From a virus (lineage: Duplodnaviria > Caudoviricetes): a stretch of 36,949 nt of DNA. Shown here one piece after another: positions 1 through 36,949 of the stretch; the first letter of the stretch is position 1, and every line of letters begins with the position of its first letter. The DNA lies in IMG/VR virus record IMGVR_UViG_3300024331_000091, positions 1 to 36,949 of that record; one strand, given 5' to 3'. The notes beneath the pieces are model-generated. The model was not told where the DNA came from and did no database searches. It saw only the letters and a program-made list of their open reading frames with translations. A program made the position numbers and the translations under genes.

Positions 1-138
1 AGTTTATACTTCACTCCATCGATTTCGATAATTTTTCCATCCAGATCCAAGGGGTCAAGAGCATCTTTGCCACCACCAAGCTTCCGAGTATCCAAGGACT
101 TTAACTTGCGGACGGCAGCAAAACGAAAGTCCTCAAAC
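1..138 (+). repeat. Terminal direct repeat / circular overlap with 36812..36949
   Basis: First 126 nt identical; 4 mismatches in the last 12 nt (127, 133, 136, 137). Confidence 0.97.
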
Positions 139-512
139 CAGTCGTTCTCGAACCAGAACACGTGCAGGTACCGGTACGCCGAGTCGCCACTGAGGGACGC
201 GACGCTGCGGAAGTCGCGGATGGACCGCACCGTGCCGAGGGCGACAATCCAGTCTTTCCTTTGCAATTCAGGATGTTGAGCGCCCAATAAGAGCAACTCC
301 GTTGCCGTGGCTGGACGTAGACCTCGGGCATCAAGTTCCTTGATCGCATCTTCGGATGAAATTGTGCGATTGAAATTCACTATCTCAATCTCTTTCGCTT
401 TTGTAGGCTCAAAGGGAAATTTCTCAATATCATCATTAAACCAGTCATACTTCCCAGACTTCACAAGGGCAGAGATAGTATTTCCTCCCGCCTTGATTTT
501 ATATGCTTCCAT
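1..512 (-). CDS. DGR target protein 1 (177 aa; continues across the junction to a stop at 36790..36792), probable C-type-lectin-fold variable protein
   Basis: Not in the ORF track. Hand translation MEAYKIKAGG...GLRPATATELLLLGAQHPELQRKDWIVALGTVRSIRDFRSVASLSGDSAYRYLHVFWFENDWFEDFRFAAVRK...; paralog of 32751..33281; contains VR1. Confidence 0.93.
   Translation of the reverse strand, partial: MEAYKIKAGGNTISALVKSGKYDWFNDDIEKFPFEPTKAKEIEIVNFNRTISSEDAIKELDARGLRPATATELLLLGAQHPELQRKDWIVALGTVRSIRDFRSVASLSGDSAYRYLHVFWFENDWFEDFRFAAVRKLKSLDTRKLGGGKDALDPLDLDGKIIEIDGVKYK
106..230 (-). repeat. DGR variable repeat VR1
   Basis: 125-nt ungapped match to TR 32384..32508; 19 mismatches, all at TR adenines (minus strand: 9 A>T, 8 A>G, 2 A>C). 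Confidence 0.97.
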
Positions 513-7940: not shown

Positions 7941-10063
7941 TATTTGGTGGAATAGAGAGTGCCATCACCGCCAAGGACATAATTGCCGGCTGCGAGACCT
8001 GCACTGTTGCCATTGTTGAGCGTGATGATGTCGCCCGCTTTATTCCCAGCTGGAAGTTGGGGAGCAGTCTGGGTGATGTATGGGAACGTCGCGCTGAGAA
8101 CGTCACTGACCTGTTTCTGGAAGGTGGCAATTTTCTGGAATGCGCCTTGGACGCTATCGGTTGCGCCCGGAAGACCTTCGACGTTGGCGGCGATTTCAGA
8201 GCCGTTGATACGAAGACCAGCGCCACCGGCGAGACCGCGCACCAAGTTGACCGCCGTTTCTCGGTAGTTATTAAAATTGTTGAGTTGATTGCCCCAGTTC
8301 GTTTGCAGGAGACTGTTCACTCGGCCGAGTGTCTGGCCCATGATTGTACCTCCGACGCCACTGCCGAGCGTCTTGGCTGCGAGTGCCTGCATCTGGTCGA
8401 GCTGACCCATCGCATTTTGAATGCCGTGAATGTTCGCTACGTCTGCGCCGGTGAGATATGGAATACCCGCTTTGGCGGCTTGGGCCTGTGCGGCGGTCTT
8501 AAAGCTCGCTGGGACACGGTCATCGTTCATATAAGCCACGCCAAGCGGACCAGCATCCACGAAAGGCTGGAGACTCGCTGGCAGCTGTTTGACCTTGGTC
8601 TGGGCATCTGGGCTAAACTGACCGCCTACGGTCGACGTAGAACCTGCTTTTCGACTTGAGAGCTGTTCTGCGACGGCTGCGACACCATCTTGCTGGGAAG
8701 CGAACTTTACATAGTTGCCACCGCCTTCGCTGGCCGGCTTAGCCGTACCTTTAGAAGTCCCTGGGTGGCTGTCTTGATAGGCCTGACTCCACGTAATGCC
8801 ACCGAGATTATTATTCTTGGTTGCGACTGGAGAAGCTCCCATATTAGACTCCTGTTGCATGATACTGATGAGCATACCTGGGTCGACGCCGGTCTGGCCC
8901 GCAATTTGCATGATTTGAGAACCAGTGATAGTTGACTTCGGATTGAGCTTGCTGATGATTGCCTGCGCATCGGAAGCACTTTGCGGATTGCCAACAACCG
9001 AGGAAATCGCACCAACCTTAGAAGCATAGGATGGATCGGTCGCATAGGTCGAAAGGTCATAGCCGTTCACGACGGAAGATTGATTGCCATTGCCGGTACT
9101 GTTCCCGTTACCACCAAGCAATGGAGAACTGCCGTCTCCAGTGAGTGGGTGAATGTCGACAGTACCATCCGGTTTTGTACCAATAAAGAGTAACTGAGTT
9201 GGGTCGCTTGGATTTGGCATGATTTGCGTATCCTGATACGTCTTCTGTGCGCCGATATTTCCAGCTTTCGTATTGGCGATTTCTCCAGTGACTGGATTGC
9301 GCGTAGTGACATAGACATCACCAGTCTGCGGATTGACGTTTGTGGCGATATTCTGCGGAGCAGTTTCTTTGTAGATATTCAACGTATCGGTGAGCGCATT
9401 TCGGTTTGCGTCATAGAGGAACTGAGCCGCTTGGAGTTGCTGAGTGCGCGTACCCTGGAGCAAGGTGAGGTATTGAGTATAGAAAGTCTTCTGACGAAGA
9501 TTTGCGAGAGAAGTCGGGGTGAGACCGTTGGCGACATCGCCGAGTTCGCGGGTCGTTGCGGCTGTGATAGACGGTAATCCACCGCCGACATTGCGATCGA
9601 CAATACCTTCCTGTTCGCCAGTCTGACTTTGAGTGATACCGAGGAGTTTTTTCTTGACATCGATTTCTTCCGGACTGAGTTCGGTATTGGCGGCAACAGC
9701 TTGAGCGAGCTGAGGAGAATTTGAAAGATAGCCCTGCAACTTCTTGAGGAGATCATTCTGCCCGAGCTGGTCGCCGGCGCTTCCGGTGATATCAGCCATC
9801 GTGCCGGTCTTAGAGAGGCCTTTAGCAACATCGCCCGCATCGATGGTGAGCGAGTCGGTCGGAGCCGGTGGTTTGATGTTGGAACCTAAATTGCCCGGAT
9901 GAGTGCCGGTCGGAATTAAATCAGCATTGAGACCAGATTTGAATAATGCGGCGCCGGCCATAGGATCAACATAGCCGGTGGACTTGTTGAAAATATCAGT
10001 CAGACCCGAGTCAGGGTTTTGAGCCTTGAAATAGTCTTGTGGATTTGGGGCGATGTCTGCCAT
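7940..10063 (-). CDS. Internal virion / ejection protein with a lysozyme-like (glucosaminidase-type) domain
   Basis: GVDPGMLISIMQQESNMG, NNNLGGI and YVKFASQQDGV motifs. Confidence 0.65.
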   Translation of the reverse strand: MADIAPNPQDYFKAQNPDSGLTDIFNKSTGYVDPMAGAALFKSGLNADLIPTGTHPGNLGSNIKPPAPTDSLTIDAGDVAKGLSKTGTMADITGSAGDQLGQNDLLKKLQGYLSNSPQLAQAVAANTELSPEEIDVKKKLLGITQSQTGEQEGIVDRNVGGGLPSITAATTRELGDVANGLTPTSLANLRQKTFYTQYLTLLQGTRTQQLQAAQFLYDANRNALTDTLNIYKETAPQNIATNVNPQTGDVYVTTRNPVTGEIANTKAGNIGAQKTYQDTQIMPNPSDPTQLLFIGTKPDGTVDIHPLTGDGSSPLLGGNGNSTGNGNQSSVVNGYDLSTYATDPSYASKVGAISSVVGNPQSASDAQAIISKLNPKSTITGSQIMQIAGQTGVDPGMLISIMQQESNMGASPVATKNNNLGGITWSQAYQDSHPGTSKGTAKPASEGGGNYVKFASQQDGVAAVAEQLSSRKAGSTSTVGGQFSPDAQTKVKQLPASLQPFVDAGPLGVAYMNDDRVPASFKTAAQAQAAKAGIPYLTGADVANIHGIQNAMGQLDQMQALAAKTLGSGVGGTIMGQTLGRVNSLLQTNWGNQLNNFNNYRETAVNLVRGLAGGAGLRINGSEIAANVEGLPGATDSVQGAFQKIATFQKQVSDVLSATFPYITQTAPQLPAGNKAGDIITLNNGNSAGLAAGNYVLGGDGTLYSTK

Positions 10064-11651: not shown

Positions 11652-12707
11652 TTATTGGAATGCTTCATAGTAGATGCGGCATCGATAGTTCGCTCCCGCC
11701 GAAGAATATCCGGAAGACAATGCAATGGCGAGGTTGATCGTAAAACTGGCATCATCCACCGCGCTCACCGAGAGCGTGAATTTCACACCATTGTTGCTGA
11801 GCTGATCACCCGTGGTCGGATTAGTGGTACTGGTGGCAATGGCGATCAAGGCATCGATGTTTTGGACATTTCCATCATCAGCCGTCATATTATGTCCAGC
11901 CGTTGCCACAGTTGAAAATATACAAAAGTCCGCAAGCTGAGTCGTTCCAAAGAATGTGACGATGCCCTTCCTGCCCGCTAGACCACCAAGGCCGCCATTC
12001 GCGGCTTGAAGATAATAATAGAGTTTGATCAGCCGTGGTCGAAAGCCAACCGTGACCTGATCTGTGGTATTGCCCGCGCTCGGGTTGGTAGAGAGATAGC
12101 TTCCAAGTGTGGCGGGAATGCCCTCCATGTATTTGGCTTGAGTCATGATGCAGAGCGTGGTTGTAGTCACGGCCTGTCCGATTAGGCGTCCGAATGTTCC
12201 GGGTGTGGTACTGATCACGCCAGCCGTGTTGGTGGTGAAATAATATGCTCCGACCGTTAGACCCGTAAATCCAGTCACGATACCTCTGTTCAGAACATAG
12301 ACTGATCCATTCACGCCACTGCCAAGATTTTGAGCGGCATCGATAAAGCCCACAAAGTCCATAGCGGCTTCACCGGCAGATGTGGCATCGGTTCGATAAA
12401 CCTTGCCGTCGGATGCTTTCAAGTAGACCGCCTTAGGAACGGATGATGCATCGATCGCTTCGCCGGTCACAAAAGTCTGATGAGCCGCATCGGTAATCCC
12501 CAAGAGAGACGCGCTCGTGTGCTTATGGCCCGGATCTATCGACTGCGGTGACATCAATTTGAAATTGCCTCCCTTGGGAACGATAGAGCGGTATTGGACG
12601 TCAGTATCGCTTCGCTTTATTTCTTCTTGGAGTCTGGAAATTTCAAGAGACGTATTCGATTTGAATGCCTCAAAATCTGCTCTCAATTTTTCAATTTCTG
12701 GGTCCAT
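11652..12707 (-). CDS. Tail fibre / spike-like structural protein
   Basis: N-terminal coiled coil, GLTVGAYYF...GVISTTPG and VGFRPRLIK motifs common in phage structural proteins. Confidence 0.55.
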   Translation of the reverse strand: MDPEIEKLRADFEAFKSNTSLEISRLQEEIKRSDTDVQYRSIVPKGGNFKLMSPQSIDPGHKHTSASLLGITDAAHQTFVTGEAIDASSVPKAVYLKASDGKVYRTDATSAGEAAMDFVGFIDAAQNLGSGVNGSVYVLNRGIVTGFTGLTVGAYYFTTNTAGVISTTPGTFGRLIGQAVTTTTLCIMTQAKYMEGIPATLGSYLSTNPSAGNTTDQVTVGFRPRLIKLYYYLQAANGGLGGLAGRKGIVTFFGTTQLADFCIFSTVATAGHNMTADDGNVQNIDALIAIATSTTNPTTGDQLSNNGVKFTLSVSAVDDASFTINLAIALSSGYSSAGANYRCRIYYEAFQ

Positions 12708-13867
12708 TAGGATTTGTTTTGCAGGTTCCAGATATTCGATACGTTTTTCGAAACATCGGTCCAGACGTTAGATATGTTTTTGCTGACGAAACTCCATATA
12801 TTTCTGATCAAGTTTCCGTTGATAAAGAGCCAATCTTTAAGTTGGAGAGTTTCAGAGAAGGTTCGACCTAGCGTTCTAAACTGGCTAAAGGTATCGGTGA
12901 GGGAGAGTGTATCTACTAAAGTCCGCGCTCCCATTCGAATGGTTGAGTCAACCAGAGAAAGTGTGTCGGACAGTACCTTCGTGGTGGTCCGAATAATTGT
13001 GTCAGAGAGACTCAAGACTTCCGTAGTGAGATTTGAGCTTATAATCTTGGTCTTAGCTATCGTATCGGTTAAAGACAGGGTTTCGGGTAGAGATCGGTTT
13101 ATGGTTCGAAGGATGGAGTCTGACAAGGAGAGAGTCTCGCTGAGGGTCTGACTGTAACTATTTACGAATGGATAGGAAAAACCAGCACCAGAATTATACA
13201 AAGACGTTACCTCGCCAGATGTCAGGACCCTGCTCCAAAGACCAACCTCGTCGATTGTGCCATAGAAGAAATGGTCAGGTCCGTACATGCGTGCACCGAT
13301 TAAGAAATCGGCGGTGTTGTCATAGATTGAACTCGCTGCCTGGCTTCCATAGGTCACGCTCGAGGACGATCCATTGATATAGATAGTGATGACCTTAGTG
13401 GCCACCGCCATCGTGATAACGACGTGATAAAGAGTATTGAGATGAATAGTATTGTCTCCGGTTGACCCATAGGTCGCAGTGGAACCAGCAGCATCAGAGG
13501 CATAGTACGCTTGGATAGCGCCAGCAGTCGTAGAACCGGGAATGATTTCAAATTCGTAACCGAAACCCGAAGCATTTCCAAATTTGGTGAGTATTGCCTG
13601 TGCTCCGGTGGACTGCGGGTCTGAGGTCATGTACATCCAGAAAGAGATACTGATATCCCCCGTGATAGATAGCGCGGCATCGTCAGCTCGTCGCAATCTC
13701 TGGCTTGAACCGCCAGCGAATACAGCGCCATTGTTTATGATGGCGTGGACGTTCGAATACGTCACCGTGTTCACATTGGTGAGATTTTCAACACCAAGAG
13801 CATCGGCGGCATCTCCGCTTGACTCGTCCAGTTTCCAGTACGCGACCAAGTTTGTTGTTAGCGACAT
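12707..13867 (-). CDS. LamG / concanavalin-A-like domain virion protein with C-terminal repeats
   Basis: LVAYWKLDESSG and GTIDEVGLWSRVLTSGEVTSLYNSG motifs; six (S/P/V/T)(E/D)xLxLxD repeats. Confidence 0.85.
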   Translation of the reverse strand: MSLTTNLVAYWKLDESSGDAADALGVENLTNVNTVTYSNVHAIINNGAVFAGGSSQRLRRADDAALSITGDISISFWMYMTSDPQSTGAQAILTKFGNASGFGYEFEIIPGSTTAGAIQAYYASDAAGSTATYGSTGDNTIHLNTLYHVVITMAVATKVITIYINGSSSSVTYGSQAASSIYDNTADFLIGARMYGPDHFFYGTIDEVGLWSRVLTSGEVTSLYNSGAGFSYPFVNSYSQTLSETLSLSDSILRTINRSLPETLSLTDTIAKTKIISSNLTTEVLSLSDTIIRTTTKVLSDTLSLVDSTIRMGARTLVDTLSLTDTFSQFRTLGRTFSETLQLKDWLFINGNLIRNIWSFVSKNISNVWTDVSKNVSNIWNLQNKS

Positions 13868-13915: not shown

Positions 13916-14512
13916 CTAGGATACTTTGATCTTCCAAGTGACCTGCAAAGAGTCGCCGTTCACGACGTTGATTGCGGAGAATACCTGGCGAGCAAGCAGA
14001 GTGACGCTTGATGCAGCGTTGAACAAACCAGACTCGGTGACGGCCTGAGTGCCAGTTACCGTATACGTGAGAACGATTTGCGCTGTGTCATTCGTCTGAG
14101 TGGTAGTGACCAAGGAGACGGAACCGGCAGCTCGACTCAAGCCTGAGGTTGAGAGCTCGGTCTGCAAAGCAGTATCGGAAGCGCTAGCGGCGTTCGTACC
14201 AGTACCAACGGCAATGTACGTGAACGCGGCAGGAGAACCGGAACCGTTGATACGACCGGCAACGGCGGCAAAGCCGACGTTGGTAGTCGTGTTGCGGACC
14301 GTGATTAAGCCGTTATTCCATCCACCGAGCATGAACTGGAAGAGGCCAGCATGTTCGTAGCTGAATGGGTTCAACCAACCGAGCTTCATCAGCTTGGTGT
14401 AGAGCCAATTCTGCTGGAACATCTTTTTGGCATTGCCGTCCTTGTCGCGCAACTGATATTGCACGTTGAAGGTCATCTTTGCTTTTCCCCCTAACATTTT
14501 TGGGCTATTCAT
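13916..14512 (-). CDS. Virion structural protein (tail/collar-like)
   Basis: YIAVGTG...DTALQTE, VTESGLFNA and GDSLQVTWKI motifs; start trimmed to ATG 14512. Confidence 0.65.
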   Translation of the reverse strand: MNSPKMLGGKAKMTFNVQYQLRDKDGNAKKMFQQNWLYTKLMKLGWLNPFSYEHAGLFQFMLGGWNNGLITVRNTTTNVGFAAVAGRINGSGSPAAFTYIAVGTGTNAASASDTALQTELSTSGLSRAAGSVSLVTTTQTNDTAQIVLTYTVTGTQAVTESGLFNAASSVTLLARQVFSAINVVNGDSLQVTWKIKVS

Positions 14513-14798
14513 TTGACAATTCCTTTCCCGAGAGGTTTTGTATAACCTCATCGGCATTTTGGTTCGCGGCATCGACCTCTGCCGACTTTTCCCCTAACTC
14601 CTTATCCGATATGAATGTGGCCAACATCTTCTTCGCAGCCGCTTCAATATCAGATTCTGGCGTCTCGAGCGGAAATTCTTCCGTCCGGGTCATTACGACT
14701 TCCTCGCCTTCGCAGATATCAAACGTAGCGTCCAAGACGCCGACATCATTCCCGACCCTATTCACTTTTCCGATTGAACGGATTTTTACTATATACAT
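14505..14798 (-). CDS. Acidic hypothetical protein
   Basis: 97-aa ORF packed into the structural operon. Confidence 0.7.
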   Translation of the reverse strand: MYIVKIRSIGKVNRVGNDVGVLDATFDICEGEEVVMTRTEEFPLETPESDIEAAAKKMLATFISDKELGEKSAEVDAANQNADEVIQNLSGKELSNE

Positions 14799-14826: not shown

Positions 14827-15582
14827 CTACATGCCTGAACTGTATCGTCTCGAGATGCGCGGACGCACGTCTCGCTCACGATTGGCGTAATGATCCTGCA
14901 TTGATGCCTTTATGGTTTCAGTGTCCTTATCCAGACGCGCTTGGTTTCCTAACCCGCGCGGTGCTCCATAATCGACGCTATTCAATATGGCTATGATCTT
15001 GTGAAATGGCGCGGCAAAGCCAGGCTGTTTTGTGGTATCGGTAGCGACGAAGTATTCAGCAGTGCGCTGAAAGGTTACACGAAGACCGGCTGTGAGGGTA
15101 ACTGAGCCCGCTGCCGGTTTAGGCCAGACTTGGACCGAATTAGCAATTTTGCGATAGTGAGTGGCCATACCATTCGTCGGAAATCGTTTTTCGAACGAGT
15201 CGAAAGGATCGAGCTGGCTTTCATCGATTGGAATAAGTTTCTGATATTGGCCGGATGCATCCATGACTTCGACTTCCTGAATGCGAAGCAAGGTCGACAT
15301 GTTGCCCGAGCCGGTATTCGCCGGTAAGAGATAATCTCCAGTACCCGCAACCAAATCGCAAGTTCCAATCGGAAGGTTTGTATAGTTGGTGTCGTCCCAT
15401 TCCCACTCAGAATTTGCTTCGAGGATCCAAGCAACGGCAAGATCGTAATTGTTATTTGAAAGGCCAACGAAAATATCGAGCAAAACGGAATTGCCCGAAA
15501 TATATCCGTCCGAGAGACCCAGAAGAGTCTCGCAGAGCTGGATAATGCCCTGACGAGGAGTTGTGACTTGATTGAACTTCAT
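14827..15582 (-). CDS. Head-to-tail adaptor / tail tubular protein (putative)
   Basis: LVAGTGDYLLP, VQVWPKP and PGFAAPFHKII patterns; gene position. Confidence 0.65.
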   Translation of the reverse strand: MKFNQVTTPRQGIIQLCETLLGLSDGYISGNSVLLDIFVGLSNNNYDLAVAWILEANSEWEWDDTNYTNLPIGTCDLVAGTGDYLLPANTGSGNMSTLLRIQEVEVMDASGQYQKLIPIDESQLDPFDSFEKRFPTNGMATHYRKIANSVQVWPKPAAGSVTLTAGLRVTFQRTAEYFVATDTTKQPGFAAPFHKIIAILNSVDYGAPRGLGNQARLDKDTETIKASMQDHYANRERDVRPRISRRYSSGM

Positions 15583-16727
15583 TTAAGGTATTTGTCGAGT
15601 ACCGCCTTCCACCTCCACGCATTCTGAGACCATTGCCAGTTCTGAGCGATGTACCTGTACGCATTATACCCAATGCGTTTTCTCAGGTCATTGTTGTTGA
15701 TAAGTTTATCGATAGTATTGAACCACTCATTCTCGGTCTTGCAGAGAAAACCAGTCTTGCCTGGCTGAATTGTCTTGAGACGATTGAAGAAACCGCCGAT
15801 GCTTTTATAGTACGGATAAACTTTCGAAGCCACGACCGGAATTTGAAGCATCGACATCTCCATCCATTTGATATGAGACTTTCCCCGATTAAATTCATCA
15901 TCAACGAGTGGCGCCAGAGCGATATCCCATCCGAGCTCGGCCAAGCGTTCAGGATAACCTTTCCAGTTCAACGTGCCTTTCACGAAAGAGAGTTGTGTCT
16001 CATCGACGCCAAGTTTAGCGACGATGTCTCTGGCCTTCTCCGGTGTAATACCTCCCATGAATTCGACTCGGACATTTCGATATTTTTCTAAAATTCTCCT
16101 CAACGCCGTCAGCACGATATCAATATCGGCATCGTGAGTGATTGATCCAGCCCAACCAATACGAAGATAGCCGTCATTGAATTTAGCAACCTTTGTCGGC
16201 CAGTCTCGGATATCATTGCAGTTCGGTAAGATATCAATGTTTTTTTGAAGTTTTGAATATGCTTTTTTCAACGGTACAGTCGAGACTAGGAGACCACTCA
16301 CGAATGAAACCACAGCTTTCAAGATGGCATTGCGATCTCTGCCCTGCGCGTATTCGGCATAGGCGGGATTGTCTTCCCGGACCGCGAAAAGATTATCGTC
16401 TAAGTCCATAACTACTGGAATGCCGAAATATCGCCCGGCCGAGATAAGATCAGAGGCGGCGCGAGGTGTATCCATCTGACGGACATAGACTAAGTCGTAG
16501 GTATTGAAAATATGGGTCATGCGCTCCTCCTGAGTTTTGCCCAAATCGTTGAAGCCCTTTCCGATGACATCAACATCGTAGAATTGCTTGAGTATCTCGG
16601 CTGGCTTCACAATTCGGTAGTAACCGATACCGCCGTAAGAGTCATTGACAATACGCTCTGGGTTTTGAGCCCAGTCGGTTCGGATCATTAAAATCTTTTT
16701 TCTATTTGGAATTGCGTTTGAGGACAT
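15579..16727 (-). CDS. GT-B glycosyltransferase (GT4-like)
   Basis: GIGYYRIVKP, MDLDDNL, IGWAGSITH and DIALAPLVDDEFNRGKSHIKWME motifs. Confidence 0.9.
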   Translation of the reverse strand: MSSNAIPNRKKILMIRTDWAQNPERIVNDSYGGIGYYRIVKPAEILKQFYDVDVIGKGFNDLGKTQEERMTHIFNTYDLVYVRQMDTPRAASDLISAGRYFGIPVVMDLDDNLFAVREDNPAYAEYAQGRDRNAILKAVVSFVSGLLVSTVPLKKAYSKLQKNIDILPNCNDIRDWPTKVAKFNDGYLRIGWAGSITHDADIDIVLTALRRILEKYRNVRVEFMGGITPEKARDIVAKLGVDETQLSFVKGTLNWKGYPERLAELGWDIALAPLVDDEFNRGKSHIKWMEMSMLQIPVVASKVYPYYKSIGGFFNRLKTIQPGKTGFLCKTENEWFNTIDKLINNNDLRKRIGYNAYRYIAQNWQWSQNAWRWKAVLDKYLK

Positions 16728-17346
16728 CTTTTTTGATTGCGAGGAACTTGTCGCCGGTCCAACCGGAACTCACCGATCCATCGCGCCGATTAAAGTTATA
16801 AACAGTTTCCGGGAAGTATTCGAATTTGAAGCCCTTATTCTTAGCCCTTAGCCAGAAATCCCAATCCTCAGCCAATGGGTACGTAAAGCCTCCCAGAGCC
16901 TCCCAGACGCTCTTTCGGAACCAACTGACCCCAGGTATCGAATTGCGCTCCTCGAGGTCGTAGGGCGAGGCGTTTACGCCATATAGGCCCGTCTCCTTAC
17001 CGAACATCATGAGATGGAAATGCCAGATATCCGCATGGCTAGTGAGAATGTGTTTTTGGAGTTTGGAAACACCGACCCGAACCAAAGTATCATCATCGTC
17101 GAGAATAGCGATAATGTCGCCGGTGGCAGATTTGATAGCAGAGTTCTTGGCTTCGAAAAATCCCCGGTTCTTTGCGTGTTTTATGTAGTGGATACTCTCC
17201 GAGCCATCGGTCCGGATGTCCGGGAATTTCTCCGAACCGTCATTGACGATGACGATCTCATCGAAGAGACCAAGGGCCGAGTCGAGCGCATGCTGAATGA
17301 GCTTGAGGTCCGGGTTATAGCTGCCGATGATCAGGGAGAATTTCAT
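16702..17346 (-). CDS. GT2 glycosyltransferase
   Basis: IVIVNDGS, LDDDD and EDWDFWLR motifs. Confidence 0.92.
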   Translation of the reverse strand: MKFSLIIGSYNPDLKLIQHALDSALGLFDEIVIVNDGSEKFPDIRTDGSESIHYIKHAKNRGFFEAKNSAIKSATGDIIAILDDDDTLVRVGVSKLQKHILTSHADIWHFHLMMFGKETGLYGVNASPYDLEERNSIPGVSWFRKSVWEALGGFTYPLAEDWDFWLRAKNKGFKFEYFPETVYNFNRRDGSVSSGWTGDKFLAIKKDVLKRNSK

Positions 17347-18056
17347 ATTTGAATGACATCGCCATAAAAGTCGATGCGCTTGGTTATTCCGCTCTCCTTC
17401 ATGTACTGCTTGATATATCCGAGCGCACGTTGTCTATATTCTTGATAGTTTGGGTTAGAAACATGGTCATGGCGGACTTGGAGACGTTCCGTGAACCCAA
17501 CCTTTATTTTACCAAGATATTTGTGATACGGCACGAGATGATCCCCTATTTTCAGACGATCATCCCATGGGTATTTGGTCAAAGTGGCCGTTCGAGCGAG
17601 CATAAGGTTTGGAATGATATCGCATTGAAGAACGCCATCACCCAAGTCGTTCCCACCGCGGATATAGGTGAGCACTGAGCCCTCTTGTTTTAAAAATCCA
17701 TGATAGGTCAGCCCGGGAACCGAGAACCCAAGGATATCAAACTCATATTTCTCCATGAGTTGTTCCGCCAGCTCGAGATTTGTTTCTTTAATGAAAAATG
17801 AGTCATCATCCCCGCACCAAGCATATTTTGTTTTGACGTTGGCGAGACCGATGTTTCTCCCGGCTGAGACACCGATATCAAACTCCGTGAAAATTATCTT
17901 TGTGGCGCCGACGTATTCGGTCTTTTCCCGACTATCATCCACAACAATGATCGGGATGTCAGGATAAAACCTCCGGACGCTGTTAATAAGCCTCTGGCAG
18001 GCCTCAGGGCGCTCGAAGGTTTTGATCATGACGGATGTATTCATAGTTTTTTCCAC
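17343..18056 (-). CDS. GT2-like glycosyltransferase
   Basis: IKTFERP, IIVVDDS, GVSAGRN and GDDD motifs. Confidence 0.88.
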   Translation of the reverse strand: MEKTMNTSVMIKTFERPEACQRLINSVRRFYPDIPIIVVDDSREKTEYVGATKIIFTEFDIGVSAGRNIGLANVKTKYAWCGDDDSFFIKETNLELAEQLMEKYEFDILGFSVPGLTYHGFLKQEGSVLTYIRGGNDLGDGVLQCDIIPNLMLARTATLTKYPWDDRLKIGDHLVPYHKYLGKIKVGFTERLQVRHDHVSNPNYQEYRQRALGYIKQYMKESGITKRIDFYGDVIQI

Positions 18057-18583
18057 CAGACGGTGCTCTCGTTTTCAACCCCAAGAAGAGTGTCGGCGAT
18101 GGCGCGATGAACGCTCTCCCAGGTGAAATCGTGACCAGAAATGATACCGCCGGCTCGCAATTTAGGCTTCCAGTCCAAAATGTCCTGTTTCACGGCTTCG
18201 TAGGAGTGATCGGCATCGATGAAGACCATGTCAGCCATGTTGTTGAAACAATGGGCGACCGCCTCGTGCGTCGTGGCTTTCAGGACCGTGACCCGCTTAT
18301 GGATGCCGAACATCTTGAGGTTGAAAAGCATCTCCTTTTTCAAATTCGCCCCCTTGGCCCTTGCCTCGGCGTGGGCCTCTTCGCCGGGCGTACCCTTGAA
18401 GGTATCAACGCAGATCACGTGTAGCTTCTTTTTCAAAATGATGTCTGCCACGGAGCAGATCGAACGCCCTTTCCATGAACCAAGCTCAATGAGAATGCCC
18501 TGCTCAGGTAAAGACTCAACCAGGCGCCGATATGTCGCTATATTCTGTTCGCTGAACCAGCCGTTTGGGAGTTCGTTATTCAT
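18041..18583 (-). CDS. Class I SAM methyltransferase (Methyltransf_24-like)
   Basis: IELGSWKGRS, FIDADHSYE and GGIISGHD motifs; start trimmed to ATG 18583. Confidence 0.9.
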   Translation of the reverse strand: MNNELPNGWFSEQNIATYRRLVESLPEQGILIELGSWKGRSICSVADIILKKKLHVICVDTFKGTPGEEAHAEARAKGANLKKEMLFNLKMFGIHKRVTVLKATTHEAVAHCFNNMADMVFIDADHSYEAVKQDILDWKPKLRAGGIISGHDFTWESVHRAIADTLLGVENESTVWWKKL

Positions 18584-19136
18584 ACGGGAGTTTATTATCC
18601 TTGGTCCAATCCCAATTATCGCGGTGAATTGGCGTCCGCCAGTTCGGACCGTAATTTTCTTCAAGATATTTCTCTATCGGTCCCGGTATCGAGTACTCCT
18701 CGCCATAAAACTCTACTTTGTCAAAGTTCTGGAAGAAGTCATCGACCATGCGGGTCTGGAAATTCCCTTGGAAATCAACAGTGTAGAAGCGCCAGGCCAT
18801 CTTTCCCTTGTACGGCGTAATGAAAAAGATATCTATTTTATAAGTGTGACCGTCAACCTCTTTTGTGAATGAAAGCTCCGGCGCAATGAAGTCGGGCATC
18901 ACGAAATGATGTTCGAACTTGAAACCAATATCTTCAAAAGCTTTGATGATTTCTAGGAACCGAATATACGAGCTCTTGTGGATTGCGATATCAATGTCAT
19001 CTATATCGCCCGGACAAAAATCGTGGTCCCGGTAGGCTCCTAAAGCCGTGCCCAAGAATAGGCAGAACGGAATGCCGAGTCGTTCAAGCGCACCTTTAGC
19101 TTCTTTGAGGTTGTTAGCGGATATTTCTTTTTGCAT
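18576..19136 (-). CDS. licD: LicD/fukutin-family phosphotransferase
   Basis: GTALGAYRDHDF...DIDDIDIA, KIDIF and YLEENYGPNWRTP motifs. Confidence 0.88.
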   Translation of the reverse strand: MQKEISANNLKEAKGALERLGIPFCLFLGTALGAYRDHDFCPGDIDDIDIAIHKSSYIRFLEIIKAFEDIGFKFEHHFVMPDFIAPELSFTKEVDGHTYKIDIFFITPYKGKMAWRFYTVDFQGNFQTRMVDDFFQNFDKVEFYGEEYSIPGPIEKYLEENYGPNWRTPIHRDNWDWTKDNKLPYE

Positions 19137-19662
19137 AGCGCACGTACTTTACGAATTGGTCTTTGGGAATGGCTATCGGATTATTTCCGTCGAGCATGTG
19201 TAGCTGGAGCGGAATGTTTTTATCAAGATAGCCGAGAATGACATCCTCACTCTTGCCAACCACGCTCACGCGACTTATTTCTCCATCTCGGTCCGGCGTC
19301 GGTTCGTCATAGCCCTTATAGATATACTTGAACTGCGTTTTGATGTGATGCATGCCCTGTTCCGGTCTCTGAGAGTAGGGATAGGAGAACCACTCACCGC
19401 TCGCGCCAATAGACTCGAGGAAATGATTAAATCCGACGACTTCGGTGTATACCTGCTCGGCGGTTAATGTTCTCATGTCCGGATGACTGGCAGTGTGATT
19501 TCCAACGTACATGCCTAGCTTGAGCAATTCTTCAACCAACTCACGCACGTTCGGCTTATCATTCACGAAGAACACGCCCTTCATCCCATGCTCTTGTATA
19601 ACTCGCGCAGCGAAGATGTCTGACTCATTCCCATCATCAAATGTGAAGAGAGGCATAATCAT
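19114..19662 (-). CDS. Polysaccharide deacetylase (CE4/NodB)
   Basis: TFDDG, GNHTASHP and FSYPY motifs. Confidence 0.88.
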   Translation of the reverse strand: MIMPLFTFDDGNESDIFAARVIQEHGMKGVFFVNDKPNVRELVEELLKLGMYVGNHTASHPDMRTLTAEQVYTEVVGFNHFLESIGASGEWFSYPYSQRPEQGMHHIKTQFKYIYKGYDEPTPDRDGEISRVSVVGKSEDVILGYLDKNIPLQLHMLDGNNPIAIPKDQFVKYVRYAKRNIR

Positions 19663-20192
19663 GAGAATATGACGCCTTGGAGTTCAAGGCAGGTTACACC
19701 AGAGGCATTGCAGACCATTCGAGCCTCACAGACGAGCTTATTGTACTCGCGCTGATCGGCTTTGACGCTCGTATAGAGATCTTCTTTATCGAGCATGATG
19801 TACCGCACGCCGGAAGTTTTAATTATCTCATCAAGGAACTGGACGCCCGGAATGGTCTCAATTTTTGGAACGACCTGAATATCTTCGTGGAGTACTTCTT
19901 TGAGGTTATTGACCATAAGGCCGGACTCGACATTCGAGACGGCGAAGAAGCGGACCTTGGCCGCGAAGAGATTGGCGAGGTCGATAGCGTCTTCCATGCT
20001 GATCGTCGGAACCGGCGGCTTGCTTCTTCCTTGTGGATAGTCTAAATACACGGGATGCGTGATTTCGCGAAGGACTGCCGCCGCTTCCTCCTTACTCTTG
20101 ACCCAAGCCAAATTTAGACGTACAACTGTACCCTCTGGAATGGGATAGCCAATAGAGGCGAGATGATTTGAAGCTATGATGATTTTCTGCAT
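19659..20192 (-). CDS. Minimal pyruvate-kinase/HpcH-like TIM-barrel protein
   Basis: VVRLNLAW, VYLDYPQGRSK, PKIETIPGV and IMLDKEDL echo pyruvate kinase RLNFSH, KIE and MVARGDL motifs. Confidence 0.6.
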   Translation of the reverse strand: MQKIIIASNHLASIGYPIPEGTVVRLNLAWVKSKEEAAAVLREITHPVYLDYPQGRSKPPVPTISMEDAIDLANLFAAKVRFFAVSNVESGLMVNNLKEVLHEDIQVVPKIETIPGVQFLDEIIKTSGVRYIMLDKEDLYTSVKADQREYNKLVCEARMVCNASGVTCLELQGVIFS

Positions 20193-20446
20193 TTTAGGTA
20201 AATAATTAAATAGATAATCGTGGTAATGATGCCGAAAGAATACTTAATGAGCAGGGGATTTTGATGGATGAGCAGGGCATAAAACAAGGCATCGATATTG
20301 GCAATGAGGTAGATGGTGAAGAATGGTAGACTGATACCTTTCACGTCTTTGGTCCGGATTGTTTTAATCATCTGCGGAATGATCATCGCCGAAAACAGGA
20401 TGGTAGCAATCCAACCAAGAATTTGTGGGTCTATAATGTTTTGCAT
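20174..20446 (-). CDS. SemiSWEET / PQ-loop transporter
   Basis: 90 aa, three TM segments, IPQMIKTIRTKDVKGIS. Confidence 0.85.
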   Translation of the reverse strand: MQNIIDPQILGWIATILFSAMIIPQMIKTIRTKDVKGISLPFFTIYLIANIDALFYALLIHQNPLLIKYSFGIITTIIYLIIYLKCRKSS

Positions 20447-20820
20447 CTCTCAATAATTTGACTGGTTGATACGCCCTCGTGATAATTCAAAAGGACGCTT
20501 TGAACCTTGCGGAATTTTGGAACTTTGGTTTCCCAACCGGCGCCAGGACCTTTGGCGAGAATAGCAGGACGGTAGCGTTCGATATTCTTGCCCGGTTTAT
20601 ACTCTCCCTGCATAACGACTTTATCGACGCATTTAAGCGCGCCAACCATTCGCATACGTTCTCGCTCATCCATGATAGGTCGGCGCTTGAAGCTCTCCGC
20701 GGCGGCATCCGATAAGACTCCGACAATGAGACAGTCCCCGAGAGACTTGGCTTCTTCGAGCAATGCTAAATGCCCGGGATGCAGGAGATCGAACACGCCA
20801 TAGGTATAAACTTTTTTCAT
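20431..20820 (-). CDS. HxGH cytidylyltransferase (TagD/GCT-like)
   Basis: GVFDLLHPGH, LIVGVLSD and GVSTSQI motifs. Confidence 0.9.
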   Translation of the reverse strand: MKKVYTYGVFDLLHPGHLALLEEAKSLGDCLIVGVLSDAAAESFKRRPIMDERERMRMVGALKCVDKVVMQGEYKPGKNIERYRPAILAKGPGAGWETKVPKFRKVQSVLLNYHEGVSTSQIIERCKTL

Positions 20821-21749
20821 AGCAGGATTTCTTTATAGATTTTCTCAATTTGGAGAGCGACATTCTCCCAGGTCATCTCGCTCAACATTTTTTTCAGGGC
20901 TTCATTCGCCGGCTTCGTGAGAGATACTTGGATGGCTTTTTCGATGGCGTCGATGTCCCGATACTCCACATACTCGGTATTCGGGATTTGCCACTCGCAA
21001 TGATTGGTCAGGACGATGTTCGCGGCCTGTGAACCGGCTTCCATGACCGTAAGTGGCATCACTTCGGCTCGGGAAGAAAGGACAAACACCTTGCAGGACC
21101 GATAGAACCGGACCAGCTCGTTATGAGGCATCGGTTTTAAGAGGATAGCGCCCTCACCAGCGCATCTTTCGGCGTATTGGGCATCAACTATCTGTCCGAT
21201 GGCTACATATGCCAAGCCGAGGCGTTTTGACGCAATGGCGGCCTCTAGCTGACCCTTAGAGGGTTCGATACGGCCGACGGTGAGGGCAAAGGGCGGGATT
21301 TCAGGTGGAACGACGCCTTCAACCTTAAACCACCAGCTATCGATGCCATTCGGGATGATGTGGACCTTCTCGTCGTCGATTTTTAAGTGACGTTTCGCTC
21401 GAAGCACTTCCCCTTCTGTTAGAAAGATTGCCGCGTCGAGATTATCAAACATGATTTGCTGATCCTCGTAGGAAACGAAGGCGTCAGACTCATGGTAAAT
21501 CATCGAGCTCACGATTTTTCGGCGGGCATTTTTGGCGCACCAGATTTGATACTTGGACCACTGCATCGAAAAGTTGAAGTTGTGGACGATATCAAAGAGC
21601 AGCAACGCTAACGCAGGCTTATATACGGGCGTGCCGTTGAATTCGACAGTATGGCCGAGCTTGCGCATGGCCTCCATCGTCTTTTCAAGCTGAATTTGGT
21701 CTCCACCTTGCCAGAGGTCAGGGTTCCTGTTCTGGTATAGGATTTTCAT
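20817..21749 (-). CDS. GT4 glycosyltransferase
   Basis: GGDQIQ, IPNGID, VGRIEPSKGQ and EVMPLTVMEA motifs. Confidence 0.92.
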   Translation of the reverse strand: MKILYQNRNPDLWQGGDQIQLEKTMEAMRKLGHTVEFNGTPVYKPALALLLFDIVHNFNFSMQWSKYQIWCAKNARRKIVSSMIYHESDAFVSYEDQQIMFDNLDAAIFLTEGEVLRAKRHLKIDDEKVHIIPNGIDSWWFKVEGVVPPEIPPFALTVGRIEPSKGQLEAAIASKRLGLAYVAIGQIVDAQYAERCAGEGAILLKPMPHNELVRFYRSCKVFVLSSRAEVMPLTVMEAGSQAANIVLTNHCEWQIPNTEYVEYRDIDAIEKAIQVSLTKPANEALKKMLSEMTWENVALQIEKIYKEILL

Positions 21750-30308: not shown

Positions 30309-30602
30309 TTAGATTAAATTCGGTCCATGAGTTCCCGCGTCGAAGCGTGAAGTCCGGGGATTGGGATCCCAGACTTTGAGATTGATGCGTTCGCGGTTCT
30401 TCATGCCGACCGTGCGGATGACGGTGCGGATAGCATGTATCATCGAGCCTTGGCGGCCAACGATGAGACCCATATCCGTCGGGTCGACATAGAGGGTGAA
30501 GAGCACGCCCATTTCATCGGGAGCGCTGCGTTCGACGCGAACCTTGTCAGGAACCATAACGATCGCCTGGACCATCAACTTCAAAATTTCTTCGGGTTTC
30601 AT
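30309..30602 (-). CDS. khpA: KH-domain RNA-binding protein, KhpA/YlqC family
   Basis: DEMGVLFTLYVDPTDMGLIVGRQG...IHAIRTVIR with an intact GxxG loop. Confidence 0.88.
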   Translation of the reverse strand: MKPEEILKLMVQAIVMVPDKVRVERSAPDEMGVLFTLYVDPTDMGLIVGRQGSMIHAIRTVIRTVGMKNRERINLKVWDPNPRTSRFDAGTHGPNLI

Positions 30603-31039: not shown

Positions 31040-32026
31040 TCATTTGTAGAGCTCCTGCATAGTTCGGCAATACTGAAAAAGTTCGAATGCGTTGCCATGC
31101 TTGAGAAGACCAGTGTACGACTGGATGGTTGCCGGAACGGGAGCAACTTTTATCCGGCGTTCCATGCGCTTCCGAGTGATTGTTCGCAATACTCTATGGG
31201 TTGGAAAGTGTATCCACCCTAGAAAATCTACGCCGGCAGATACCGTTCCAATCGAGATCTTATCCGGATGTAAGGATAATTTCAGGCCATTCATCAGAAA
31301 ATTCTCAATCCTTGGAAGAATCCCCCGAAGGTGGCTTTTCGAAGTGTTGAGAAGCACGAAGTCATCGGCATAACGAATGTAGTACTTCTGTCTGAGATGA
31401 TGCTTCACGAACTGATCGAACTCATTCATGTAGACATTGGCGAGGATCTGAGACGTGAGATTTCCAAGTGGTAGTCCTTTGCCTGGGCCAGACTCAAAGC
31501 TCTGAATTATGTCTCGCAGGAGATCGAGCATTTGAGCATCTCCGATGTATCGACCGAGAATTGCCATAATAACTTCGTGATCGATACTGGCAAAGAATTT
31601 CCGGACATCGCATTTCAACGCCCAACACGTCTGAGTATAATTCTTGCTGGCTTTCCGACATAATTCCTTAAACTTTACTCCTCCGGCATGGGTCCCCTTG
31701 TTCTGTCTGCACGAGAATGAATTTGAGATAAACTTCCGGTCAAAATAGGGATAAAGAACTTGGTGAATAGCATGATGCACAAGCCGATCTCGAACTGATG
31801 CTTTGCTGATCTGTCTCGGCTTAGGATCATTGATTTTGAACTCATGATATCCGCCATGCCGATATGTACCATTTTCTAAATCTTCGTGTAATAGCATCAA
31901 GTTATCCATCAAATCTCGTTCGAATACTTGGACGTCAGACTTATTTCTCTTTCCTCTAGCGAATTCATTCCACGCATTCAAGAGGTTGTCCAATGATATG
32001 ATTGTGCTAAAATTGATGGTATCCAT
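31040..32026 (-). CDS. DGR reverse transcriptase (start at 32026, 32032 or 32056)
   Basis: RDRLVHHAI, KGTHAG, KCDVRKFFASIDH, DGR-type GLPLGNLTSQ, YADD and VDFLG motifs; no endonuclease domain. Confidence 0.96.
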   Translation of the reverse strand: MDTINFSTIISLDNLLNAWNEFARGKRNKSDVQVFERDLMDNLMLLHEDLENGTYRHGGYHEFKINDPKPRQISKASVRDRLVHHAIHQVLYPYFDRKFISNSFSCRQNKGTHAGGVKFKELCRKASKNYTQTCWALKCDVRKFFASIDHEVIMAILGRYIGDAQMLDLLRDIIQSFESGPGKGLPLGNLTSQILANVYMNEFDQFVKHHLRQKYYIRYADDFVLLNTSKSHLRGILPRIENFLMNGLKLSLHPDKISIGTVSAGVDFLGWIHFPTHRVLRTITRKRMERRIKVAPVPATIQSYTGLLKHGNAFELFQYCRTMQELYK

Positions 32027-32381
32027 GAGCATGATCCAAGACGACCTGCCTATCATTAAGACCGCTACTGATGCCTATCTAATCTGGCATGCTAATCTCA
32101 CACATCTTCCTCGTATGAGCCGTTTCACTTTAGGCTCAAAGATCGATCGTATCTTCTTAGAAATTATCGAGTATCTTCTCATTGCTGGATATGCCAGTCG
32201 CGAGAAGAAACAAATTGTTGTTGGGCAGGCAAGCGCCAAACTCGACACTCTGAAATTTTTTCTGAAAATTGCATGGCGAACGAAAGCGTTAAGTAATGCA
32301 AAATATACAGAATTGTCTTCACCAATCGCCGAGATTGGTAAGATGCTCGGCGGCTGGCGCAAACAGCTTTCCTCTGAATAG
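32025..32381 (+). CDS. avd: DGR accessory variability determinant (four-helix bundle)
   Basis: LPRMSRFTLGSKI and EIGKMLGGWRK motifs; ~118 aa, basic; lies between RT and TR. Confidence 0.92.
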   Translation: MSMIQDDLPIIKTATDAYLIWHANLTHLPRMSRFTLGSKIDRIFLEIIEYLLIAGYASREKKQIVVGQASAKLDTLKFFLKIAWRTKALSNAKYTELSSPIAEIGKMLGGWRKQLSSE

Positions 32382-32383
32382 AG

Positions 32384-32508
32384 TTGCGGACGGCAGCAAA
32401 ACGATAGTTCTCATTCCAGTCGTTCTCGAACCAGTTCACGTTCAGGTTCCGGTTCGTCGAGTTGCCATTGAGGTATGCGACGTTGCGGTTGTCGTGGATG
32501 GACTGCAC
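32384..32508 (-). ncRNA. DGR template repeat (TR)
   Basis: 125 nt, 35 adenines, 11 AAC/AAT codons in the VR frame; holds A at every position where VR1 or VR2 differs. Confidence 0.97.
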
Positions 32509-32750
32509 ATTCGTATCTCACGCCTTCCATGACACTGTCCATTGAATTTTCTTTGGACTGTATTTTATTTGGAGACGTTATCTCTCTGACGCGAGACACC
32601 AAGTATATTGAGAGGTGGGAAGTATCGTTGGCACACTGATCAAAACCAATGGTCCGGATCATTCTGGCGTATCGATATATCCAGGTTTCGGTCGCTCGCA
32701 ACCTTGGCCACGAACTGTGTCACCTACTACCCACTTAAATTTTTAATCAA

Positions 32751-33281
32751 CTATCCTTTCAGTTTAAGAGTCCCTTCGTACGTCTTACCGCCAACCGTCA
32801 GATCAAACGACTGACCGTCCAAGGAACCAACTTCCTTTTCCGAACCAAGCTTCCCAGTATCCAAGGACTTTAACTTGCGGACGGCAGCAAAACGATAGTC
32901 CCCAGGCCAGACGAGCTCGAACCAGAGCACGCGCAGGTCCCGGCTCGCCGAGTCGCCATTGAGGCATGCGACGCGGCGGAAGTCGCGGACGGACTGCACC
33001 GTGCCGAGGGCGACAACTGGAAATTCACGCTGAACTTCCGGATGTTGGATACCGAACAATAAAAGTTCGGTCGCAGTAGCCGGTCGAAGACCTTTAGCTT
33101 CCATCTCTTTGATCGCATCTTCCGAAGAGATATAGCGATCGAAGTGAATAAGCTCGATGGATTCGGCTTCTGTTTTCTCGAATGAGAAATAAGAAATATC
33201 ACTGTCTTTGTAGTCGTATCTCCCAGCTTCGACCAGAGCTTTCAAATCATCTTCTTTTCCTATTTTTATTTTATATTCCAT
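32751..33281 (-). CDS. DGR target protein 2 (176 aa), probable C-type-lectin-fold variable protein
   Basis: Start trimmed to ATG 33281 (MEYKIKIG) by alignment with target 1; LRPATATELL resembles the RLPTxxE motif of CLec-fold DGR targets; contains VR2. Confidence 0.93.
   Translation of the reverse strand: MEYKIKIGKEDDLKALVEAGRYDYKDSDISYFSFEKTEAESIELIHFDRYISSEDAIKEMEAKGLRPATATELLLFGIQHPEVQREFPVVALGTVQSVRDFRRVACLNGDSASRDLRVLWFELVWPGDYRFAAVRKLKSLDTGKLGSEKEVGSLDGQSFDLTVGGKTYEGTLKLKG
32875..32999 (-). repeat. DGR variable repeat VR2
   Basis: 125-nt match to TR; 22 mismatches, all at TR adenines (11 A>G, 6 A>C, 5 A>T). Confidence 0.97.
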
Positions 33282-36803: not shown

Positions 36804-36949
36804 TCTTTACGAGTTTATACTTCACTCCATCGATTTCGATAATTTTTCCATCCAGATCCAAGGGGTCAAGAGCATCTTTGCCACCACCAAGCTTCCGAGT
36901 ATCCAAGGACTTTAACTTGCGGACGGCAGCAAAACGATAGTCCCCAGGC
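36790..36949 (-). CDS. 3' end of DGR target 1 (joins 1..512), carrying an alternative VR end
   Basis: ...PGDYRFAAVRKLKSLDTRKLGGGKDALDPLDLDGKIIEIDGVKYKLVKNAPK*. Confidence 0.9.
   Translation of the reverse strand, partial: PGDYRFAAVRKLKSLDTRKLGGGKDALDPLDLDGKIIEIDGVKYKLVKNAPK

What the first reader, a model, noticed from the sequence alone, without database searches (positions are those of the whole stretch)
31040..33281. Complete phage DGR that hypermutates small non-structural proteins rather than a tail fibre
Seen: intact RT, Avd, TR and two VRs with all 41 mismatches at adenines and no stops. The targets are ~176-aa paralogs with no signal peptide or TM segment, located among replication and recombination genes; I saw no VR in the tail genes. 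Known: the BPP-1 paradigm diversifies the receptor-binding protein Mtd through a CLec fold. Inference: the phage makes a library of intracellular binders, for example adaptive anti-defence or host-takeover proteins.
Basis: partly seen in the sequence, partly recalled or inferred. Interest (0 to 1): 0.92.

Follow-up and report, generated by a model that had tools for sequence, protein, structure and literature searches.

The report
Phage hypermutator borrowed from tiny hosts
A circular phage genome carries a complete reverse-transcriptase mutator that has rewritten the same patch in two small, predicted lectin-fold proteins encoded among its replication and recombination genes; the cassette was likely taken from an ultra-small (Patescibacteria) host and the proteins likely act inside the cell, a variant of a pattern already reported in other phages.

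Summary
Observation confirmed. TR 32384-32508 differs from VR-A (32875-32999) at 22 sites and from VR-B (106-230, across the circular junction) at 19; all 41 are TR adenines. No third VR exists. 'No stops' follows from TR codon design, not selection. The targets are predicted stand-alone C-type-lectin domains.

New here: this is a Patescibacteria-type DGR. It has the TR-(avd)-RT layout and an RT 56-61% identical to chromosomal RTs versus at most 40% to GenBank phages. The target family has 8,061 clusters and occurs in 29 of 301 sampled genomes of one CPR phylum. Phage-type members lack the chromosomal N-terminal module and carry a C-terminal tail read through from the DGR's 3' element. In relatives that element is an 8-nt periodic array I did not find in print.

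Non-virion is likely; 'intracellular binder' is untested, and chromosomal relatives also lack membrane signals. Non-structural phage DGR targets are published (Quimbyvirus, PMC8008677), and this scan noted the pattern on other DNA several times. New variant of a known kind; interest 0.5.

The parts
31040..32020 (-). DGR reverse transcriptase (326 aa from ATG 32020; ORF opens at 32056, 338 aa), YADD motif
   Evidence: Pfam RVT_1 2.3e-25, PHROG 1423 9.8e-112, motifs; 56-61% identical to chromosomal Patescibacteria-labelled RTs
32028..32381 (+). avd accessory gene, inverted relative to TR and RT; its stop ends 2 nt from the TR 3' end
   Evidence: PF22296 bAvd 53.4 bits, cut-off 40; PHROG 3206
31986..32013 (+). 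sigma70-like promoter candidate for avd (TTGTCC-16-TG-TAAAAT), inside the RT 5' end
   Evidence: consensus scan only, one of 15 hits versus 7.9 expected; not evidence of function
32384..32508 (-). Template repeat (TR), 125 nt, 35 adenines, 11 AAY codons; the adenine-invariant 3' end includes the IMH*-like GC-rich segment
32509..32750 (-). Non-coding stretch between target A and TR; inferred 5' leader of the DGR RNA
   Evidence: position; RNA fold of 32240-32750 has z = -2.1, weak
32751..33281 (-). Target gene A, 176 aa: predicted stand-alone CLec domain (1-137) plus about 40-aa tail ending in a predicted beta-hairpin
   Evidence: AF2 mean pLDDT 91; fold searches
32875..32999 (-). Variable repeat A (codons 95-136), 22 mismatches to TR, all at A
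32856..32895 (-). 40-nt repeat shared by both targets (IMH-like VR end plus start of the tail); second copy at 87-126
   Evidence: unitig of 40 nt at double depth
32754..32874 (-). Tail-coding stretch of A; its first part resembles the CCTTGG-type 3' element that is non-coding in chromosomal relatives
   Evidence: motif-free periodicity not significant here (p = 0.17)
1..512 (-). Target gene B, main part (177 aa in all; continues across the circular junction)
   Evidence: P0005
36790..36811 (-). 3' end of target gene B, overlapping the start of the HNH gene (36803)
106..230 (-). Variable repeat B, 19 mismatches to TR, all at A
36812..36949 (.). Terminal overlap with 1-138 (circular contig); the last 12 nt follow the VR-A allele instead of VR-B
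   Evidence: 4 differences

Best explanation
The phage carries a complete diversity-generating retroelement, likely captured from a Patescibacteria chromosome, that has rewritten adenine positions in two small paralogous proteins predicted to be stand-alone C-type-lectin domains, which likely act as non-virion binders inside the infected cell during phage-host or phage-phage conflict. Shown: the parts, the adenine-only mutation pattern, the gene context and the kinship of RT, layout and target family with CPR chromosomal DGRs. Also shown: both VRs match the present TR at synonymous sites (pS 0.03) while the rest of the paralogs is saturated (pS 0.83), so both were rewritten long after the duplication. 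From established DGR biology: TR RNA is copied by RT-Avd with errors at A, and the cDNA replaces the VR. Inferred: a CPR host; early or middle expression; variable residues forming one exposed face; loss of the host form's three-helix N-terminal module and gain of a tail by read-through of the 3' homing element; and a ligand that is a changing host defence protein (my first guess) or a protein of a competing phage.
For: 41/41 mismatches at A; no other VR. Paralog scaffold 61% identical with pS 0.83 and pN 0.28, i.e. old duplicates under purifying selection, versus pS 0.03 in the VR. AF2 model pLDDT 91; residues 1-137 match CLec folds (Bd2740 Z 7.2, rmsd 3.7, 103 aligned; TvpA Z 6.0; Mtd Z 5.8), and the Foldseek list is led by C-type lectins. 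On predicted strand 113-120 the AAC codons (113, 115, 117, 119) alternate with conserved R114 and L116. Layout TR-(avd)-RT is architecture B3, 90% of the CPR set (PMC5758913). The same layout with the same target family lies among housekeeping genes in L019/L044, L045, L048. RT identity is 56-61% to those versus at most 40.4% to 180 GenBank phage records. The family is in 29 of 301 genomes of the phylum of G020. Genes are embedded among Erf, NinB, Rep, RusA and HNH, away from the structural block at 5.9-28 kb. 0 of 14 capsid relatives carry target or RT. A's tail motif is kept in P0002 and P0004.
Against: No ligand, expression or localisation data. All fold Z-scores are under 8 and Foldseek E-values are above 0.001, and the best match is the tip of a Bdellovibrio adhesive fibre. 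Chromosomal relatives also lack TM or signal segments, so that trait says nothing phage-specific. Only one allele per VR was seen in the source-like run. Four other phages keep the gene with no RT or TR in their records, which fits frozen relics as well as function. The host is inferred; capsid homologues occur in only 2 of 401 genomes of that phylum, at 30-35%. Direction of transfer was not tested with a rooted tree.
Confidence: 0.55

Rival explanations
1. Passenger: a mobile host DGR cassette was picked up by recombination, and the targets are rewritten as a side effect with little benefit to the phage.
For: The cassette is absent from 14 of 14 capsid relatives searched. It has lower GC (RT 44% versus 50% for the structural block). 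The family is very common in CPR chromosomes. RT-less phages hold the gene, one with a degenerate VR (L014). One allele per VR in run X1.
Against: Two old paralogs under purifying selection, both still matching the TR and 3.5 kb apart. Both are tightly packed into the operon. Similar pairs appear in other phage-sized contigs (P0002/P0006 and P0004/P0009, paired only by equal contig length). Tailed, N-terminally trimmed forms need at least 3 changes on the tree.
Confidence: 0.18
2. Virion adhesin: the small CLec proteins are clipped onto the particle, as a fibre tip or head decoration, through the C-terminal tail and diversify adsorption as Mtd does.
For: CLec is the fold of Mtd and of the Bd2740 fibre tip, the top match. 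Phage-type members have a tail that chromosomal ones lack. Roux et al. caution that 'non-structural' viral targets may be uncharacterised structural proteins (supplement).
Against: Both genes lie in the replication/recombination operon. The phage has other receptor-binding candidates without a VR: a LamG protein at 12707-13867 and a weak tail-fibre match at 13916-14572. Tails differ widely between paralogs and phages (beta-hairpin, coiled-coil-like, Cys-rich), and homologues occur in phages that share almost no other genes with this one.
Confidence: 0.14
3. Host-function mimic: the proteins do whatever the chromosomal CPR targets do (for example binding in the episymbiont-host contact, or cell regulation) and the phage supplies extra variants that keep the infected cell productive.
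For: Same family and cassette as chromosomal DGRs. The phage also carries other host-type genes: a glycosyltransferase cluster at 15.6-21.7 kb and a KhpA-like KH protein.
Against: The phage forms lack the roughly 50-aa three-helix N-terminal module of the chromosomal form. No export signal. No integrase was detected among 56 ORFs, so long-term lysogenic benefit is not indicated.
Confidence: 0.13

Closest known systems
CPR/Patescibacteria chromosomal DGRs: clade 2 of Roux et al. 2021 (PMC8144416; passages, sections 8-9, supplement passages); architecture B3 of Wu et al. 2018 (PMC5758913; passages, section 14 part 1)
   Same: TR-(avd)-RT order with inverted avd; RT 56-61% identical; same target family and closely similar TR-encoded peptide; targets without TM segment or known domains.
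   Different: Here it is on a complete phage. Targets lack the three-helix N-terminal module and continue about 40 aa past the usual ...FAAVRK stop. One target is 3.5 kb away. Clade-2 membership was not tested against their reference tree.
Quimbyvirus ('Quimbyviridae') DGR, Benler et al. 2021 (PMC8008677; passages)
   Same: Phage DGR with a CLec target outside the structural module, proposed to act in phage-host conflict.
   Different: Quimbyvirus also has a target in the structural module, a frameshifted RT and Bacteroidota hosts. Here both targets are non-structural paralogs, none is in the tail, and the cassette is CPR-type.
Burkholderia phage Magia DGR (PMC7883833; passages) and viral target clusters PC_00009/PC_00007 of Roux et al. 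(supplement passage)
   Same: Phage DGRs with short targets, or targets classed as non-structural/unknown.
   Different: Magia is a temperate proteobacterial myophage; no integrase was detected here. Whether this family is one of those clusters was not tested.
Bordetella phage BPP-1 DGR (mtd-avd-TR-brt; Guo et al. 2011, PMC3240598, abstract)
   Same: RT, Avd, TR/VR, adenine-specific mutagenesis, predicted CLec fold (Mtd Z 5.8).
   Different: The target is not a tail protein, avd is inverted and downstream of TR, the VR is internal, and no GC-rich hairpin common to both VRs follows the IMH.
Nanoarchaeal AvpA (Handa et al. 2016, PMC5006420; passages, section 6)
   Same: Internal VR followed by a 46-residue extension whose coding DNA holds the homing element; AAY codons that allow no stops.
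   Different: Archaeal and cellular; a putative hairpin rather than a periodic array; no sequence match to the family in PDB.

Membership tests
Diversity-generating retroelement | DGR-type RT, intact | tested here: met
   RVT_1 over cut-off, PHROG 1423, YADD, no break
Diversity-generating retroelement | TR/VR pair with mismatches at TR adenines | tested here: met
   41 of 41
Diversity-generating retroelement | Accessory avd gene | tested here: met
   PF22296 53.4 bits
Diversity-generating retroelement | VR in a CLec (or Ig) fold | tested here: met
   Predicted model; both PDB searches are dominated by CLec-type folds over residues 1-137, though Z is at most 7.2
Diversity-generating retroelement | Variable residues clustered on an exposed face | tested here: inconclusive
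   Alternation with conserved residues on predicted strands; solvent exposure not computed
Diversity-generating retroelement | IMH/IMH* and downstream hairpin | tested here: inconclusive
   GC-rich adenine-invariant VR end is present. No shared local hairpin: VR-A z = -2.7 from long-range pairing, VR-B z = 0.3. Wu et al. find such repeats in only 34% of DGRs.
Diversity-generating retroelement | Ongoing retrohoming | tested here: inconclusive
   One allele per VR in contigs of run X1; synonymous identity to TR shows rewriting after the duplication
CPR-type DGR (Wu B3 / Roux clade 2) | TR-(avd)-RT architecture | tested here: met
CPR-type DGR (Wu B3 / Roux clade 2) | RT falls within clade 2 | tested here: inconclusive
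   In a 14-row quick tree it groups (SH-aLRT 96) with CPR-labelled and related RTs, apart from two long-branch outgroups; no clade-2 reference set was used
CPR-type DGR (Wu B3 / Roux clade 2) | Target without TM segment or recognised domain, of a family found in CPR chromosomes | tested here: met
   No Pfam or PHROG hit; hydropathy; 29 of 301 genomes; Atlas neighbours mostly Minisyncoccota
CPR-type DGR (Wu B3 / Roux clade 2) | Cellular (chromosomal) location | tested here: not met
   Circular genome with terminase, portal and major capsid genes and no host genes at the ends
BPP-1/Mtd-type tropism-switching DGR | VR in a tail or receptor-binding gene of the structural module | tested here: not met
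   Genome-wide scan finds only two VRs, both in the replication/recombination operon
BPP-1/Mtd-type tropism-switching DGR | Target present in the virion | not testable with these tools
   Needs proteomics or cryo-EM

The most novel reading that the evidence does not exclude
CPR phages have repeatedly captured their hosts' DGR-diversified intracellular lectin-fold sensor, removed its three-helix N-terminal module and redeployed the bare binding domain as an adaptive decoy or counter-defence protein. The 8-nt periodic CCCTTGG-type array 3' of the VR is this clade's target-recognition signal in place of a hairpin. It is kept in frame inside the phage tail, so that RT-less phages can have the gene rewritten by the host's own DGR while this phage carries a private copy of the machinery.
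Probability: 0.2. Interest if true: 0.82.

Novelty: new variant of a known kind. Interest (0 to 1): 0.5.

Why it matters
What CPR DGR targets do is an open question (Roux et al. 2021 leave it open), and so is the role of non-structural phage DGR targets. This genome joins the two. It gives a compact system with RT, Avd, TR and two soluble targets of about 176 aa that can be expressed, folded and used for pull-downs, and whose host-type counterpart differs by one N-terminal module. The 8-nt periodic element is a concrete, testable candidate for how hairpin-less DGRs recognise their targets. The general idea of phage DGRs acting on non-tail proteins is already in print, so surprise is moderate.

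Tried and rejected
Pfam and PHROG give no hit for either target. NCBIfam gave only five single-member weak hits over 84 chromosomal-type homologues. PDB sequence search with the family profile gave only chance hits, E >= 0.25. Viral structure library: 0 matches at E <= 0.001. AvpA was not among the top 50 fold rows, which excludes nothing. The tail alone found only itself and no usable Atlas hit. The homotrimer prediction of target A returned 'no answer' and is not used either way. The fold search of a chromosomal-type model was filled by the CLec domain, so its N-terminal module is untested. GenBank phages hold no homologue of target A (0 of 50,697). Target A as a single query found no viral locus, and a degenerate VR-end pattern found none. 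No RNA holder was listed. Runs X2 and X3 hold only 5-8% of words in short pieces at depth 2-3; one X2 piece carries the same 3' part of VR-A, possibly cross-talk, so it is not used. The ends of provirus record G009 showed no host genes (15 of 20 ORFs scanned). The KH protein search gave no host label. A third target at the window's end was rejected as the circular overlap. A conventional GC hairpin after both VRs was not found. Paul et al. 2017 (Nat Microbiol) could not be read and may describe CPR phage DGRs or the 3' element. Roux supplementary files 9 and 12 were not searched, and I did not test whether this element is already in that catalogue.

Full report
Setting. The window is a circular phage genome of about 36,811 bp: positions 1-126 equal 36812-36937. 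The unitigs of run X1 (8,919, 23,895 and 4,062 nt plus one 40-nt repeat at double depth) cover the circle at even depth (X1 may be the source, so it is not independent). Of 56 ORFs scanned, hits include terminase, an SU10-type portal and adaptor, major capsid, a LamG protein, a glycosyltransferase cluster, Erf, NinB, Rep, RusA, HNH and a KhpA-type KH protein. No integrase was found.

Observation. TR (32384-32508, -) has 35 adenines in 125 nt. VR-A (32875-32999) differs at 22 sites and VR-B (106-230) at 19, all opposite A. An adenine-blind scan of both strands finds only these three copies (90/90; next best 42/90), so no structural gene has a VR. 21 amino-acid positions can vary, about 9e18 variants in theory, and none can become a stop; Handa et al. 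note the same for AAY codons. RT and Avd are intact by profile, with avd on the opposite strand. Target B crosses the junction and is 177 aa. The window's last 12 nt join B's tail to A's VR across the shared 40-nt repeat; this is an assembly ambiguity or a rare recombinant, not a third target.

History of the two targets. Codons 1-88 of A and B are 61% identical with saturated synonymous sites (pS 0.83, pN 0.28). In the VR pS is 0.03, and it is 0 in the 6 codons before and 10 codons after. So these are old duplicates under purifying selection that were both overwritten from the present TR afterwards, with flanks homogenised beyond the TR by conversion or constraint. Current activity is not shown: one allele per VR is seen in contigs, which drop rare variants.

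Fold. The AF2 model of A (40-sequence alignment) has mean pLDDT 91. Residues 1-137 match C-type-lectin folds: Bd2740 C-terminal domain Z 7.2 (rmsd 3.7, 103 aligned), TvpA 6.0, Mtd 5.8. Foldseek ranks animal C-type lectins first, with E above 0.001. Scores are middling but the lists are nearly uniform. AAC codons alternate with conserved residues along strand 113-120, which fits a one-sided variable face; exposure was not computed.

Origin. The layout TR-(avd)-RT is architecture B3, which Wu et al. report for 90% of their CPR set and as nearly absent elsewhere. The family profile hits 8,061 clusters at 50% identity and 29 of 301 sampled genomes of the phylum of G020, labelled Minisyncoccota. 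Among 39 loci examined, the same target-TR-(avd)-RT cassette is complete in L019/L044, L045 and L048, cut by contig ends in several others, and rearranged in L027. Neighbours there are housekeeping genes such as tRNA synthetases, enolase and RuvA (76 of 126 ORFs from 7 loci scanned). The RT is 56-61% identical to these and at most 40.4% to the 180 GenBank phage records hit. Shine-Dalgarno motifs precede 3 of 52 genes versus a 10% background; that CPR genes often lack them is recalled, not from a call. A CPR host is therefore likely but not shown. Roux et al. state that clade-2 CPR targets lack TM and other domains and leave their role open.

Phage-type remodelling. Of 186 homologues, 158 end within 8 residues of the domain and have a median N-terminal extension of about 51 aa, predicted as three helices in one model. 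23 have tails of 25 aa or more, and 18 of those have no extension. 24 of 26 chromosomal ends are tail-less (3 of 29 loci dropped for lacking the domain end). Tailed forms occur in replication-type regions of four IMG/VR phages and L038, which share 0-3 other genes each with this phage. None of the four records has an RT or TR/VR pair; two are rated complete. A quick tree (198 rows, 100 columns, weak) needs 9 changes of the tail label, at least 3 forced by strong branches. Conversely, 0 of 14 capsid relatives (14 of the 20 loci; 3 complete) carry target or RT (the same profile rang in 4 of 4 records). The gene is thus accessory and recurrent, not core.

The 3' element. In chromosomal loci the DNA after the VR stop holds CCCTTGG/CTTTGA-like units spaced 8 nt apart. 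A motif-free lag-8 score averages 6.9 over 29 VR ends versus 1.3 background and 1.7 over 10 TR ends, with 19 of 29 at p < 0.05 (some loci are near-copies). In 26 held-out ends it averages 4.3 versus 1.4, again peaking at lag 8, with 9 of 26 significant. In phage-type genes similar units are read in frame as the S/L/G/P-rich linker. For the window's own two genes the motif count is high (3 and 5 versus 0.45; motif chosen by eye) but the motif-free score is not significant (p = 0.17). AvpA is a precedent for a homing element inside a coding extension. I did not find this array described or in the passages read; Paul et al. 2017 was not available. Its role in homing is an inference from position.

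Function. I favour soluble binders used in conflict inside the infected cell (0.55), over passenger (0.18), virion adhesin (0.14) and host-function mimic (0.13). The support is contextual: operon position, accessory distribution, purifying selection, repeated remodelling. No ligand is known.

Prior art. Benler et al. 2021 report a Quimbyvirus DGR target outside the structural module and infer a role in phage-host conflict. Roux et al. class two viral-associated target clusters as non-structural/unknown. Magia has short targets. Two-VR phage DGRs are reported in PMC11792537 and PMC10743442 (passages). Wu et al. note one CPR-set DGR annotated in a free phage. PMC8867640 was read in passages without bearing on the targets. 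Searches showed no paper on a CPR-type DGR phage with this target family. Earlier notes of this scan record the same general pattern on other DNA. Verdict: real; new variant of a known kind; interest 0.5.

Noticed in passing
3' of VR ends in L005, L007, L009, L019-L049, L087-L116: 8-nt periodic CCCTTGG/CTTTGA-type array directly after the VR in CPR-type DGRs, also in three with other targets (L005, L007, L009), and not after TRs; candidate target-recognition element. Replicated in a held-out set.
   Followed up: partly
G001:C1:1769-2173, G002:C1:33636-34016, G003:C1:5769-6218, G004:C1:27264-27650; L038:10004-10510: Unrelated phages carry a tailed member of the target family with no RT or TR in the record (G001-G004; for L038 only 20 kb seen): relics, or rewritten in trans by a host DGR.
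   Followed up: partly
window 15579-21749: Nine-gene glycan-modification cluster (four glycosyltransferases, methyltransferase, LicD, polysaccharide deacetylase, aldolase/PK-like, PQ-loop membrane protein, cytidylyltransferase) inside the structural module between capsid and adaptor genes; may glycosylate the virion or host surface.
   Followed up: no
window 30309-30602: KhpA/KhpB-type KH-domain RNA-binding protein (PF13083, 58.9 bits) two genes downstream of the RT; one 81% identical homologue lies on a 35.8-kb contig.
   Followed up: partly
window 36938-36949 versus 127-138: Contig end joins gene B's tail to gene A's VR allele at the 40-nt shared repeat; assembly ambiguity or a rare recombinant that would swap tails or excise about 4 kb.
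   Followed up: partly
window 32028-32384: The avd stop lies 2 nt from the TR end (37-48 nt in L019 and L045), so any 3' spacer of the DGR RNA would be antisense to avd coding sequence.
   Followed up: no
window 1-36949: Only 3 of 52 genes have a Shine-Dalgarno-like motif, and no integrase or repressor was detected; a DGR in an apparently non-integrating phage.
   Followed up: partly
P0041-P0060 and G288:C9:9471-14982: The family includes tandem two- and three-domain proteins, and one genome has five matches within 5.5 kb.
   Followed up: no
L012:8270-9323: Another viral DGR with two small targets (193 and 165 aa) next to TR and RT, unrelated to this family by tblastn.
   Followed up: no
window 7940-10063 and 3588-4022: Glucosaminidase domain in a 707-aa probable ejection protein, and a separate SLT transglycosylase.
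   Followed up: no
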